Positions 33,001-39,000 of a stretch of 64,000 nucleotides of DNA are shown here, one piece after another (positions within the stretch are counted from its first letter, which is position 1; each line of letters starts with the position of its first letter). Made by a program: the position numbers. The stretch covers positions 1 through 64,000 of the forward strand of contig BTWA01000018.1 in NCBI GenBank assembly GCA_045863295.1, written 5' to 3'. The stretch comes from Candidatus Hydrogenedentota bacterium. GTDB taxonomy: Bacteria > Hydrogenedentota > Hydrogenedentia > Hydrogenedentales > SLHB01.

Positions 33001-36000
33001 CCGGTATGGAAGCTATGAAATCCGTGATCGGACATGATGAAAAGAAGATCGTTCTCCTTTAGTCGCTTCATGACTTCGCCCACGATTGAATCCATCTTTT
33101 GATAGGATTCCTCAACGGCTCGGCCGTATTTCGTTGCACCTTCTTCCGTATAGAGCGGATGACGCTTGTCGCGATAGCGCCAAAACATGTGGCTGACACG
33201 ATCAGGGGCGGTCCACGCCGCCACCATCATGTCAAATGCGTTGGTATCCAGTTCATCCAAAGTCAATTGTTCCTGCCACCCCGCGGAATTGCGCGTGTCC
33301 ATGAGAAACGCTTCATCCGACAACGCATCCTGGCGTAACGCATGAGTGTCGTAAGCCCAGCCGATTGTTTTGAATAGCCCATATCGCTTGCGCAGTTCGG
33401 TTCCGTAGCTGATGGGTGTCGTAAAGGGAATATACTGCTCGTCGGGATGAAACTGCAGACAACTCATGTAGACAGTGACATCTTCCGGCGCAACCTTCAG
33501 CGCATAGAACTGGCTCACTGCGCGTACTTTGTATACTGGACTGAGTTCAAAAGCCCATTCGACCCACTTCGACCATTGTCCCTCGGCAAGCTCGACGGAT
33601 TGCCCTTGCACTGTCAGCGTGACATTACCACCTGCCACATCAGCATTAATCATGAGCGGTACCTTGACAAATGCCTTCGCAGAATCGAATTCTTCACGCT
33701 TGTCGCGAGCCCCGGGAATTTCCACACTACCTGCCCCATCGGTGAGAGTCAAGCGTAGAGCCATCCCCCCGCTCTTTATCGACAATTCACGAGTGGAGAT
33801 TGCGAAGAACGTGCTCGTGGTTCCCCGTATATCAGGCACGCCCAACCCGCAAATCATATGCCCTTGCTCAAGGCTTTCAACCGGGTAGGCAAATGGCACC
33901 AACAGTATTTTGCTTCGCGCCCCTTGCTTATCGGCCACGGACCAGAACGATTCTCCGTGGCGGATAGAATTAAAAACAGGCGGAGTCAACAGCTTTCCAT
34001 CGGGAGACAGCGTGGCGTGTTCCGGCATGCCGAATCCCACACCGGGAAAATACGTTTTTGGATTCCGCCGAAGAAAATCGTACACGCCATGCTCCCCCGG
34101 ATTTTTGCAGGTAATGAATGACGACCATGCCGTGGGGGATTGCGGCGGATTTGCCGTTTCCAACGGTTTGAACGTGCCCTGCTCGCTCAACTTCTTGAGG
34201 TTTGGAAGTTCACCCGCGGCAAACATTGTCTCCACAAGCGTGGGCTCGACGCCGTCGAAACCGAGAATGACCACGCGTCCCTTGGAGGATGGTAGTTGCG
34301 CCTCGGCACGCAAGGTAGAAACGGACAAGACAACAAATACAGCCACCGGCAACAAAAAGAGGGCCTGGGGGAAACGCGCGCGAGACGAGAACGCAGTTAC
34401 GACGGTCATGTGAAAAAAATCCTTGTGCCTGATTCCAACGCTAAGAGCGGAATATACCACGTGCGTCTAACCCCGTCCAAAAGTCGTAAGTTCCGGGAAT
34501 GTTCGCTACGCCGCGTGTATTTGCGTTCCAGGCAATAGCGCCACTTGTTCTGCCCGCAAATCAAGTGCAAAGCCCCGCTTTGGAATTGTGCGGATCAGCT
34601 TCTCGCGTCCAGGCACAACGCCGGTAATACGTTCCAGCAGTTTCTTCTTTTGAAAATGCATCTGCGCAGGCTCCACGACAATTTCACCCCAAAGCGCTAT
34701 ATAGATCGACTCATACGGAACACATTCGCCAGGAACTTCCGCCAGGCATCGCATCAGTCGAAACTGTTTCTCCTGCAATCGAACCACGCGGCCGTCCAGA
34801 TGAATTTCACCCGGTTTGCGATCGTCCAGCACCAGTACTGGCTGCATTGCCCGACTTGTTCGATGCATTGCTTTTGCCCCTTGACCACGCACCTCACCCT
34901 GTGCCCATGTTCGCAGTGCGCGTGCCGTACCCGCCGAAACCCATTTTGTCAGCAACGCGTCGGTTGCATCGGCCAATGCTTCCGGCATATGCAGCCCCAT
35001 TCGCTCAAAGGCTATGGCTGTGTGACGTGTCACGTCGGTTTGCCCCAGCGTCATTATCCGTGCCGCTTCCGAGTGCAGTCCGTATTGCACCCGTTCCGCA
35101 GTACGCCGGATTTCGTCTACAAAGCTCCGTTTGGCCGCCATGGCTTCGGCAATGGCCGCTGCGGCGTCCAGCAGCCAACTCACCTGATCGGCCGCCTCGC
35201 CAATCTGTCCCGCGAAGACATGGTACCGCTCCTCCAATTCGTATAGATCGGCTTCGCGAATCCACTCGTCCAGAATGAGCGCCGCCTTGACTGCCCGAAC
35301 TTCCTCGTAAAAAGGCTTCACGGTCGCATGCCGCAATCGATTCAGCGGTACATCGGCTTCGTCCTGCGTCTCTCTTGCGCGGCGCTTCAGTCGGTTAACG
35401 TAGTCCGATTGGTCGTACTCTTGTGCTGCGAGGGCCATTTGAATCAACTTGCCGTCCGCAGTCATCGCCGCCGCCAGGATCAAGTCGATGGGCAACCACT
35501 CACGCGTTTCCGACTCGCGCACCCAATATGCCAGTTCCCGTGCCGTATCAATCGATATTCCTTTGGACGCGACCGCATGCCCAAACGGCGTCGCCGACAG
35601 CCTTCCATCCGCATCAGACTGAACCAACCCCGCGTCCCGTACTCGATGCATTGCCGCGCGGATTCGGTTTTCAACCTCGTCCACCGTACAGGTCTCTGGC
35701 CAAATCCAGCTTCCGGACAATGTCGCGTCAAAAAATTGGGCCAAATCGGAATCCGTCCTGCATGTGCGCGAGGCGACCAATCGGAGCACATGATCCTCCA
35801 GTGGGTCCTGCGCCAGCCGCGGCGTGATTCGTTCGCGGTCGCCATCCACATATCGCCGCCAAAGGGTGGCCCGATCATAGGGAGAAGTGGCGATCACAAT
35901 CGATCGCCCAAAAGGAATTCCAGTGCCAAACCTGCCCGCCCGCCCGCCCATGTTTTCGTATTCCGCGCGCAAAATAGGCGTTTTCCACGGCATGCCAAAC

Positions 36001-39000
36001 CGGCTGTCAAACTGCCATTTGTCGGTGGTAATAAAAACGTTCTGTGCGGGAAGATTCAGGCCAACCGCAAGTGTGCTGGTTGCCACCAACGCTTTCACCT
36101 CGCCGGAGCGAAACGCATTCTCCACAATAACGCGTTCGTCCCGGGACAAGTCGGCATTATGAAATGCGACACCGTGCGCCAGGGTTTCCATCAACATATC
36201 CCTGGAATGCGTCGCTTCCAGCCGTTGCATTGCCACCAAGGCCTCGCTCGCGGGAGTACTCGACACCCGCTGCGCCAGCACATGCGCCCCGTTCCGCGTC
36301 TCCGCCTTGGCCTTCACAAACACGAGACACGGCTCTTCACGATCCACAAATGCGCTGACATTGTCCGCGAGGATTTCCCACATGGAATCCGAATGCGTAT
36401 GAATCAGCCGCTCTTCCGATTCCGAATACTCGTTGTGCGTCCGGTAAGAGAACACACCGTCATGCAGGACCCCGAATCGCAACTCAACCGGTCGTCGCTC
36501 ATACACCACCATTTCGGCATTCATCCAATGAGCCAGCTTGTCGGCGTGACCAATCACAGCCGACAAGCCGATCAATCGACGCTTCGATCGCAGGATACGT
36601 GTTAACAGCAGTTCGGCCTGCGCCCCGCGCTCGGGATCGGACAGCAACTCCAACTCATCCGCGACGACCAGTTCGATTTCCTCCAACCGTTCAGGCCGAC
36701 GCACCAACAACTGCCCCAGTTTCTCGTACACGACGACTGCAATCGAAAAGTCGCCCTGTTCCAATGCGCGGTCATGCTCCCGACGGTCACGCGTGGAAAT
36801 AATGACCTTCAGTCCATACGGCTCATACTTAGCACGAAAGCCCGCCCACTTCTCCTCGGCAAGGGCCTTCAACGGCACGAGGTACACGACCTTCTTCCGC
36901 TTCAGCGCGGTTTGAATCGCCGCCATCTCCCCCACGAAGGTCTTTCCGGAACTGGTGGGGGCCTGAATCAGCAGATTGCCACTGGTAAACAGGCAATGGC
37001 GCTTAATGGCGAGTTCTTGAAGTGGAAGGAGGGTTTCGCCCTCTTCCTCCTGCCAAAGGCGGATAATCTCCGGGGGAATGTCGTACCGCAACAATTCGGT
37101 TAATTTCATCGGGGGACCCTCCCTATTCAGGAGGGATAATACTGAAAATTTATTTAGTTGTCAAGCCCCCGTTCCACAATAGGAACCCATAGGACGCAAC
37201 CGCCCTATGGGTTTTCAATGCAGCGCGTTCGAAGAGAATGTCAGGTGAAGAACCCGACGAAGAAATTGATAAACAATTGCATTGCAACCAGGATCAAGCC
37301 AAAAACGATGATAAACATGGAGTGTCCTCTCCCCTCGCTGTCACGGATTTTGTGGGTTGACGCCGAAAACCTGTGCCAGCGTATTCAGAAAATTAGTAGA
37401 CGCACTGAGAAATCCGACGACACCCGTTAACAAAAGAACTATCTGAGAGCCTTGACCAATGAATATGTTCGGTATCGCCAGAATCGTTTGGAAGATGCCC
37501 AACAACTGGGCAATCGGTTCGAACTGGGCCTTCGCGGGCAACGTGTATCGCTTCATTTCTTCGCCTCCTGCACCGGGCCTTGGTCGTTCTTGGCCCGCTT
37601 GTTTCGTTTCCAAAGGTTCCGGTCGAAATAGATTACCGTCGAAAGCATCACGCGATTCTGCACGACATCTTCGTCGAATCCGCGAATGCCTCGCAAGAAA
37701 TCCGAGTTTACATCATCGCCATACCGCAATTGATACGCGAGGTCGATATTCACGCTCTCATTAATCAGACAGCCCACGCCTACGGCGAAGCCATAAAAAC
37801 TGTCCGGCGCCCCTGTGGCCGGCTCCTGATCGTAAAATACACCGCCGCGCAAGCTCCACAACCGCTTGAACACTTCGTCCGGCTGTTTGGGGATGAAGAC
37901 ATATTCCGCCCCAAACCGTACCGTATACGTCGGGTCGAAATCCTGCGCAAACCAGATGTCATCGAGGTTGCTTGCATCCACGAGCGAGATGCGGTTTCCA
38001 TCCCGCCCCTTAAACCAGAAGTCGTTCCAGTCCGTACGCGAAACGTCCATCGCCAGTGTCAACCGGTCGTTTGGCCGGTAGGCCGCACCCACCGCCAGCG
38101 TTGCCGGAAAACTGATGTCCCGAGGTTCCTTCGTAATTGAGGGGAGGAAAAAAGCGCCGCCTCCCGTGAGCGAATAGTTAGAACGGATGCTGCGCTGCTC
38201 GAAATCGGCCCGGCCGACCCATCCGGTGTCGTATCTCGCGCCAAAGCTCCATTGCTCGTTCATATCCCAAAGCAGTCCGATGGAAAGGTTATATCCAGTC
38301 AGGTCTTTGTACTCGTCATGCGACGTGGACGAGTTCAGCGTGACTCCGTTGGCGCTTTGCGAAAAGGTGGTCGTCTTCAGGTCTTGTTCCCACGAGTTGT
38401 CAGAAATGAACGTGCTTCGCCAAAAATTGAGCGCAACACCCAGCGACAAACGGTGCGTTAATTCCATCGCAATGGCAGGGGAGACCGTGCTGATAGACCC
38501 GTTCTGTTCAAACTTCATGTTCAGGTAGTTGTTGGTAATGGTGCCCGCCGCCGCACCCGCGTTGCCGGGCGCCACGGAAAACGTGTTGAACTGTAAATCA
38601 AAGTTGCGCGTGAAATCGTATTTATGCTGGTAATACAGCCCCACCACCACGTTCCGGTTGAGCACGGTAAACGGCAAGGGGTAGGTAAGGCTTAGAAAGT
38701 TCAGGTTGAACGCATGGTCGTTGTGCCAGGAATCGACCTCGTCATGAAAATCCGCGGAGAACCCTTCGTAGATGCCGTTATACGAGCCAACGATTGCAAT
38801 CTCCGGCACTTCCAACTGCACCAGCCCAGCGGGATTCCACGAAGCCGCGCTTGCGTCGTCCGCGATTGCCACGAAGGCATCCGACATGCCCGCCGCGCGT
38901 GCACCAGACCCCACCGGGCTCGGCGAAACAGAGATTTCCAATTCCTGTGCGGGCGCCGTGGCCGCAAGCAACAACGCAACGGCCAGACACCCTAGTAGCG

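What a model noticed while it worked through the whole genome (the two positions that open the first line are those of the whole stretch)
34506..37160. LexA-controlled archaeal-type Hel308 helicase fused to an OmpR-type winged helix is fixed across Hydrogenedentota
g02863 (867 aa) is a full archaeal-type Hel308 helicase with an added C-terminal OmpR/PhoB-type winged-helix domain. It is a core gene of the phylum and has a LexA box in its promoter in every locus checked, so a bacterial phylum appears to have built Hel308 into its SOS response.
Evidence so far: Best Swiss-Prot hits are archaeal Hel308 (30-31%, E 1e-66, residues 1-720; call 21). Its domain-4 family is in 0.3% of bacteria, 67% of archaea and at least 85 of 132 order genomes. 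Match in 38 of 41 phylum genomes. Most of the 120 listed homologues carry PF00486. A matrix built from lexA, recA, imuB, dinB and mrfA sites (not hel308) finds a box 46-114 bp upstream in 25 of 25 loci, 24 scoring 16 or more; here CTAAATAAATTTTCAG at -51.
(Added by a program. Inside this text positions count along the whole contig: contig position 1 is position 1 of the stretch shown here. "Call 12" and the like, gene names such as g00115 and contig names such as C1 are that model's own, and its searches are not shown. The text may have been shortened before it was handed on; [...] marks where a part breaks off. The agent that wrote the report below was given it as the finding of a first reader that could run no searches.)

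Follow-up and report, generated by a model that had tools for sequence, protein, structure and literature searches.

The report
Bacterial SOS-controlled Hel308-like helicase family
A DNA-repair helicase of a type thought to be missing from bacteria is standard equipment in this little-studied bacterial group and in several others, where it is probably switched on by the DNA-damage (SOS) response.

Summary
Observation confirmed; the reading needs correcting. The 867-aa gene has the five-domain Hel308 fold plus a C-terminal OmpR/PhoB-type winged helix. It was found in 126 of 135 phylum genomes. A matrix built only from lexA promoters ranks its site 7th in the genome and scores 8 or more upstream of 58 of 60 orthologues. 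The box shifts when LexA's helix shifts. But it is not a phylum-specific archaeal import. It is one subclade of a multi-phylum bacterial family (39 of 41 Zixibacteria-group genomes) with its own motifs: DExE/Q, SAV, NMxGRAGR, against archaeal DExH, SAT, QMxGRAGR. Elsewhere the gene often carries that genome's own, different LexA box or follows lexA or recA. The link is patchy in some groups (2 of 12 Sumerlaeota loci). One lineage lost the catalytic glutamate yet stays under purifying selection. Best reading: an SOS-induced fork and recombination remodeller; activity untested. The scan noted this family before on another genome (e1-1148497).

The parts
34506..37109 (-). Gene for the Hel308-like SF2 helicase with C-terminal winged helix, 867 aa
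37159..37164 (-). Predicted -35 hexamer TTGACA
   Evidence: 11 of 12 consensus matches; same layout in orthologue promoters
37142..37157 (-). Predicted LexA operator CTAAATAAATTTTCAG (phylum consensus CTGAA-N6-TTCAG) in the promoter spacer
   Evidence: 17.8 bits, rank 7 in the genome
37136..37141 (-). Predicted -10 hexamer TATTAT
37117..37123 (-). Likely ribosome-binding site GGGAGGG
   Evidence: sequence; inference
36552..37025 (-). RecA1 domain (res. 29-186): Q motif, Walker A APTSSGKT, motif II DELE, motif III SAV
36648..36659 (-). Motif II D151-E152-L-E154 (His of DExH replaced by Glu in 120 of 120 homologues)
35925..36260 (-). RecA2 domain (res. 284-395): motif IVa FHNADL, beta-hairpin 363-378, motif VI ENMGGRAGR
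35550..35822 (-). Hel308 domain 3 (internal winged helix), about res. 430-520; limits approximate
   Evidence: inferred from model and fold match
35079..35333 (-). Ratchet domain 4, PF21280 match (res. 593-677)
34896..35072 (-). Domain 5 (helix-hairpin-helix-like, about res. 680-738); RAR motif lost, first Arg (R695) kept in 118 of 120
34533..34841 (-). C-terminal OmpR/PhoB-type winged-helix domain (about res. 757-859)

Best explanation
A LexA-repressed, DNA-damage-induced Hel308-like enzyme that works on the cell's own DNA. Shown by sequence: fold, domains, near-core distribution, and an operator-like palindrome in the promoter spacer that tracks LexA. Inferred step 1 (about 0.9): LexA bound in the spacer blocks RNA polymerase until RecA-ssDNA triggers LexA cleavage. 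Inferred step 2 (about 0.7): the protein loads on ssDNA at stalled forks or D-loops and, like Hel308/HELQ, moves 3'-5' and/or anneals strands, limiting RecA recombination. Inferred step 3 (about 0.5): the added winged helix grips the neighbouring duplex without sequence preference, in place of the lost domain-5 RAR brake. The rewired motif II-III-VI residues may weaken the coupling of ATP hydrolysis to unwinding.
For: Model pLDDT 95 matches Hjm/Hel308, target TM 0.85-0.89. K56, D151, E152, R390, R393 are kept in 120 of 120 homologues. 30 of 31 lexA promoters carry CTGA-N8-[AT]CAG, downstream of the -10 rather than in the spacer. The lexA-only matrix also finds sites before DinB-family, radical SAM, RecA-like, Pol IV and MrfA genes. 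Only 1 of 80 sigma70-like promoters in the genome has the box in its spacer, and it is this one. In family f8 LexA's helix changes and the box begins GTGAA at lexA (9 of 9 loci, 7 ending TTCAG) and at the helicase (8 of 8). Matching lexA and helicase boxes of other types occur in G135, G136, G137, G138, G139, G141, G142. Zixibacteria group: promoter-plus-box in 14 of 20 loci. lexA or recA lies directly upstream in 9 of 26 other tail-type loci.
Against: No binding, expression or enzyme data. The three coupling residues differ from archaeal Hel308. Family f8 has DD[IV]D instead of DExx in 8 of 8 genes with dN/dS 0.09-0.13, so ATP hydrolysis may be dispensable there. Boxes were found in only 2 of 12 Sumerlaeota loci, in 0 of 24 loci of the tailless Binatia-type clade, and not at all in 16 of 26 other tail-type loci (only three box types were searched). 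G001 has the gene without the box. The own recA site scores only 12.1. Below about 14 bits the matrix is near chance: 69 sites against 55 in shuffles at 12 or more.
Confidence: 0.68

Rival explanations
1. A damage-sensing transcription regulator: the helicase core senses ssDNA or nucleotide and the OmpR-type tail is the sequence-specific output, forming a second tier below LexA.
For: The tail matches response-regulator, CadC and ToxR DNA-binding domains. Its recognition helix HFQK and wing TxPKRGF are well kept in the phylum. Family f8 keeps tail, box and purifying selection after losing the catalytic Glu.
Against: All ATP- and ssDNA-handling domains, ratchet and domain 5 included, are kept. 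The tail's helix differs between phyla and the Binatia-type clade has no tail. The promoter palindrome is not the protein's own site: it persists at lexA in G049 and G055, which lack the gene.
Confidence: 0.14
2. An SOS-induced, largely ATP-uncoupled DNA clamp or annealase rather than a translocase, across the whole family.
For: Motif II His, motif III Thr and motif VI Gln, which couple hydrolysis to movement in DExH helicases (recalled), changed together. Motif IVa Gly is Asp. f8 lacks the catalytic Glu. ATPase-null HELQ still anneals naked DNA (PMC13623763, passages).
Against: Walker A Lys, Walker B Asp-Glu and both motif VI Arg are invariant outside f8. DExQ boxes occur in the Suv3 helicase family (Pfam name).
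Confidence: 0.13
3. A Hachiman-like anti-phage or genome-integrity sensor helicase.
For: HamB is Ski2-like and senses DNA damage (PMC12278908, passages). A caspase-fused sister clade with the same motifs lies on plasmids.
Against: PADLOC matches are weak and limited to the helicase core (best E 2e-36). No nuclease partner: the flanking genes are a FadL-like and a phosphodiesterase-family gene. Near-core, mostly single-copy distribution.
Confidence: 0.05

Closest known systems
Archaeal Hel308/Hjm (PDB 2zj2, 2p6r, 2va8) and metazoan HELQ
   Same: Five-domain fold (target TM 0.85-0.89), about 28% identity, PF21280 ratchet, beta-hairpin with an aromatic residue.
   Different: DELE/SAV/NMGGRAGR against DExH/SAT/QMxGRAGR; FHNADL against FHHAGL; no RAR; extra OmpR-type domain; LexA box; separate clade.
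Hachiman HamB / AbpB (bacterial Ski2-like defence helicases)
   Same: Bacterial Ski2-like SF2 core, linked to DNA damage.
   Different: Only core-level similarity; no HamA partner nearby; near-core gene.
Lhr and MrfA (bacterial damage-linked SF2 helicases)
   Same: Role proposed by analogy; the genome's own mrfA has a 15.3-bit site.
   Different: Distant families: Lhr-like structure E 1e-7; this protein has Hel308 domains 4-5.
OmpR/PhoB, CadC, ToxR DNA-binding domains (PF00486)
   Same: Fold with N-terminal beta sheet, recognition helix and wing (E 1.6e-12; query TM up to 0.73).
   Different: Fused behind a helicase; no receiver or membrane domain; no binding site known.
Known LexA boxes: E. 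coli TACTG(TA)5CAGTA, P. aeruginosa CTG-N2-T-N7-CAG, B. subtilis CGAAC-N4-GTTCG (PMC9578287 Table 1)
   Same: CTGAA-N6-TTCAG shares the outer CTG...CAG with the first two and the inner GAA...TTC with the third; Armatimonadota loci carry the B. subtilis type.
   Different: No description of the Hydrogenedentota box was found. Likeness to the Myxococcus and Fibrobacter boxes is recalled, not checked.

Membership tests
Hel308/Hjm | Five-domain architecture (RecA1, RecA2, WH, ratchet, HhH) | tested here: met
Hel308/Hjm | NCBIfam equivalog cut-off (NF040935, NF002654) | tested here: not met
   268 of 1200 and 380 of 887 bits; these cut-offs are narrow
Hel308/Hjm | DExH / SAT / QMxGRAGR motifs as in the archaeal rows | tested here: not met
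   DELE / SAV / NMGGRAGR
Hel308/Hjm | Domain-5 RAR motif (role recalled) | tested here: not met
   present in 10 of 10 archaeal rows, absent from 12 of 12 bacterial rows
Hel308/Hjm | Branches inside the archaeal Hel308 clade | tested here: not met
   archaea form one side with SH-aLRT 100; two nestings rejected; sister position not rejected
Hel308/Hjm | 3'-5' translocase, unwinding and annealing activity | not testable with these tools
   needs biochemistry
LexA regulon | Same palindrome as at the cognate lexA promoter, overlapping promoter elements | tested here: met
LexA regulon | Box changes with LexA across lineages | tested here: met
   kin are not independent
LexA regulon | LexA binding and induction by damage | not testable with these tools
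   needs EMSA and expression data
OmpR/PhoB-type wH (PF00486) | Fold | tested here: met
OmpR/PhoB-type wH (PF00486) | Pfam gathering score | tested here: inconclusive
   23.7 against 26.2 for this protein; listed for 112 of 120 homologues
Hachiman HamB | Full-length HamB match and adjacent hamA | tested here: not met

The most novel reading that the evidence does not exclude
Bacteria have their own old branch of Hel308, with a rewired ATP-coupling triad and an OmpR-type tail. It is an unrecognised SOS gene kept under at least three different LexA boxes across several uncultured phyla. In some lineages it works without ATP hydrolysis, as an annealase or as an ssDNA-sensing transcription factor that forms a second tier of the damage response.
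Probability: 0.3. Interest if true: 0.85.

Novelty: new variant of a known kind. Interest (0 to 1): 0.64.

Why it matters
A 2024 paper states that Hel308 is absent in bacteria (PMC12278908, passage). A five-domain relative that is near-core in two bacterial phylum-level groups and tied to LexA under different boxes adds a gene to the SOS inventory. It also bears on where Hel308/HELQ came from. The natural motif variants (DExQ, DExE, DDxD) give a direct test of the open question of how Hel308-type enzymes divide annealing from translocation. All 80 loci are metagenome-derived or of uncultured taxa by their titles, which may explain why the family was overlooked.

Tried and rejected
Box as a by-product of a conserved promoter: rejected (1 of 80 promoters; different position at lexA). 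Box as the helicase's own site: rejected. Recent import from an archaeal subgroup: rejected for the two subgroups tested. A third AU test (all bacteria plus Thorarchaeota) did not finish, and the mixture-model tree timed out. Trees therefore use FastTree (89 rows, 13 dropped as short or intein-length) and quick IQ-TREE LG+G4 (40 hand-picked rows). No outgroup root. Hachiman or other PADLOC system: rejected. Cluster look-up of 10 representatives gave no taxa. No complex was predicted. Myxococcota-group sample: 1 of 61, the query itself; Armatimonadota-group sample: 5 of 61, so the family is patchy there. Literature searches listed no report of this family; the library lacks most subscription papers, and supplements (for example of PMC10946056) were not read.
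Full report
The gene. Window 34506-37109 (-) encodes 867 aa. Pfam finds DEAD, Helicase_C, the archaeal helicase domain 4 (above cut-off) and PF00486 just under cut-off. Hel308 NCBIfam models hit with E down to 2e-113 but far below their cut-offs. The AlphaFold model (pLDDT 95, 132-row alignment) matches Hjm/Hel308 best (target TM 0.85-0.89). The last 115 residues, folded alone, match BaeR, ArlR, CadC, ToxR and PhoB DNA-binding domains. The flanking genes are unrelated in function. No tool names the window's phylum; the label rests on 62-63% identical homologues named Hydrogenedentes and on tree placement with named records.

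Distribution in the phylum. 126 of 135 genomes match, 81 of 86 high-quality ones, in all 15 families; some matches are contig-end fragments. The five high-quality misses stay negative with a profile. Near-core is the fair word.

The operator. The promoter is TTGACA-17-TATTAT and the 16-base site at 37142-37157 fills its spacer. Orthologue promoters show the same layout with otherwise unrelated upstream DNA. I took 31 lexA loci (own plus the 30 best of 124 positive genomes). 30 have CTGA-N8-[AT]CAG, mostly just downstream of the -10; the exception is a different LexA type. A matrix from the 16 distinct lexA sites scores the window site 17.8, 7th in 6.3 Mb. Sites of 16 bits or more number 16, against 6.5 in locally shuffled DNA. 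Other high sites precede lexA, a DinB-family gene, a radical SAM gene, a RecA-like gene, Pol IV and mrfA; several top sites precede unidentified or unrelated ORFs, and recA scores only 12.1. Upstream of 60 orthologues, 58 score 8 or more and 41 score 16 or more; the two failures are an assembly gap (L017) and G001. Some of these 60 may be the same genomes reached by two tools. Of 80 sigma70-like promoters in the genome only this one has the box in its spacer.

Covariation. In family f8 the LexA helix reads STNGV[VA]GHI instead of STNGVNDHL. The lexA site begins GTGAA in 9 of 9 loci (7 end TTCAG) and the helicase site is GTGAA-N6-TTCAC in 8 of 8. These are genomes of one genus, so this counts as one event. 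G001 showed two LexA genes, both of other types, and its helicase promoter has no box. The lexA box persists in G049 and G055, which lack the helicase, so the site is not the helicase's own.

A wider bacterial family. The exhaustive search returned 1,223 clusters at E<=1e-30; the best 150 score 322 bits or more and many align over the tail. The Atlas lists three bacterial clusters ahead of all archaeal ones. Named loci come from Armatimonadota, Zixibacteria, Sumerlaeota, Myxococcota, Nitrospirota, Planctomycetota, Binatia and others. Samples at E<=1e-60: 39 of 41 genomes in the phylum of G142 (Zixibacteria by title; it also holds two genomes titled Ignavibacteria), 20 of 31 in the phylum of G138, 5 of 61 in that of G135. 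At E<=1e-90, 1 of 61 in that of G273.

SOS link outside the phylum. Seven genomes show the same box at lexA and at the helicase promoter: TGCAC-N4-G.GCA in G136 and G142, GAAC-N4-GTT[CT] in G135, G137, G138, G139, G141. G140 is unclear, G143 has a box only at the helicase operon, and no lexA was found in G144. In 20 Zixibacteria-group loci, 14 have promoter plus box by pattern, one more by eye, one shows half a site, one is cut and three show none; 14 have a small CxxC gene in front. Three of 5 Armatimonadota-group loci match by pattern. The box patterns hit 8 of 319 coding windows used as control. Of 26 other tail-type loci, 5 follow lexA, 4 follow recA, one more has a box, and 16 show no link. 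Against the reading: 2 of 12 Sumerlaeota loci and 0 of 24 Binatia-type loci, which also lack the tail. Only three box types were searched.

Motifs. Archaeal rows read DExH, SAT, QMxGRAGR, FHHAGL and RAR. Bacterial rows mostly read DExQ, SAV, NMxGRAGR. In 120 close homologues E154, A184 and V185 are invariant and position 386 is Asn in 114 and Ser in 6; K56, D151, E152, R390 and R393 are invariant. That these positions couple hydrolysis to movement is recalled. Family f8 has DD[IV]D in 8 of 8 genes, with dN/dS 0.09-0.13 in the 9 unsaturated pairs of 28, like 0.09-0.11 in a control genus. The protein is therefore kept there without the usual catalytic glutamate.

Phylogeny. Archaeal Hel308, the caspase-fused bacterial clade and the Hydrogenedentota clade each form one side of a branch (100, 100, 99). 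FastTree puts Hydrogenedentota inside a 58-row bacterial clade (98). In the IQ-TREE run the tail-type group as a whole has only 45 support. Joining Hydrogenedentota to Thorarchaeota-like or to two euryarchaeal rows is rejected (p 1e-10, 2e-5). Joining it to all archaea is not rejected (p 0.135). There is no root, so origin is undecided. Shared motifs and the tail tie the gene to other bacteria, not to an archaeal donor.

Mechanism. Most likely (0.68) LexA represses the gene, damage induces it, and the protein acts like Hel308/HELQ at forks and D-loops, translocating or annealing to limit recombination, as the 2026 review describes for those enzymes (PMC13623763, passages). The tail probably adds duplex binding. 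Rivals: regulator (0.14), ATP-uncoupled clamp (0.13), defence helicase (0.05). Regulation is well supported by sequence; every enzymatic step is inferred.

What is known. [quoted passage not shown] PMC13623763 (passages) says Ski2-like helicases occur in bacteria and names Hel308 for archaea and choanoflagellates. PMC10946056 (three passages) gave nothing on bacterial members; its supplements were not read. PMC9578287 (passages with Table 1) and PMC3108266 (passages) give the known boxes. PMC12288472 (passages) did not bear on this gene. Searches listed no description of this family.

Verdict. Real and well supported as a LexA-regulated bacterial Hel308-like family; a new variant of a known kind. 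The claim should be widened from one phylum to several and the word 'archaeal-type' limited to the fold. Interest 0.64.

Noticed in passing
L065 (G109:C572), L147, L149, L151, L154, L156-L159, L161, L162, L165, L167, L172; plasmid hits: A separate bacterial clade of Hel308-like helicases with the same DExQ/SAV/N motifs, no tail and a roughly 250-aa N-terminal extension; a caspase domain was confirmed in the two tested. Scattered taxa and plasmids suggest a defence gene; no specific PADLOC model.
   Followed up: partly
L114, L136, L141, L199-L217: Zixibacteria-type operon: LexA box, small CxxC zinc-ribbon gene without Pfam match, helicase, and in L114, L136, L141 a Lon protease directly behind.
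   Followed up: partly
L068, L069, L099-L104 (family f8): Walker B reads DD[IV]D in all 8 genes, under purifying selection; two high-quality genomes of the same genus lack the gene.
   Followed up: yes
L285-L328 (Binatia-type loci): A tailless 730-754 aa subclade with no box detected and no lexA or recA within 2 kb.
   Followed up: partly
G000:C3:182109: An 18.6-bit site lies about 250 bases upstream of mraZ, between it and a divergent hydrolase gene; possible LexA input to the cell-division cluster.
   Followed up: no
G000:C13:59149, C22:72922, C2:134662: Strong sites (17-19.5 bits) before ORFs not identified by Pfam or not scanned; candidates for unknown SOS genes.
   Followed up: partly
L111, L133, L290, L291, L296, L323, L329, L331, L332: Records titled Nitrospira-like, FCB or Bathyarchaeia carry the DExE/D-type gene, most with the Hydrogenedentota box; L111 and L133 nest inside that clade. 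Probably mislabelled or misbinned, not checked.
   Followed up: no
L148, L181: A further long-branch pair (an Acidobacteria record and an archaeal record, 905-919 aa) with an Asn in motif VI, next to archaeal Hel308 in the FastTree run, flagged as a possible long-branch join.
   Followed up: no
G014:C321:8342-11663: lexA and the helicase lie close and convergent on one contig.
   Followed up: no
window 37117-37135: An inverted repeat (CCCTCC / GGAGGG) spans the predicted transcription start and the ribosome-binding site; not seen in orthologue leaders by eye.
   Followed up: no
window 39012-44225: A Ser/Thr kinase with TPRs and a lipoprotein-like CsgG/TPR protein lie upstream of the FadL-like gene; no link to the helicase.
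   Followed up: no
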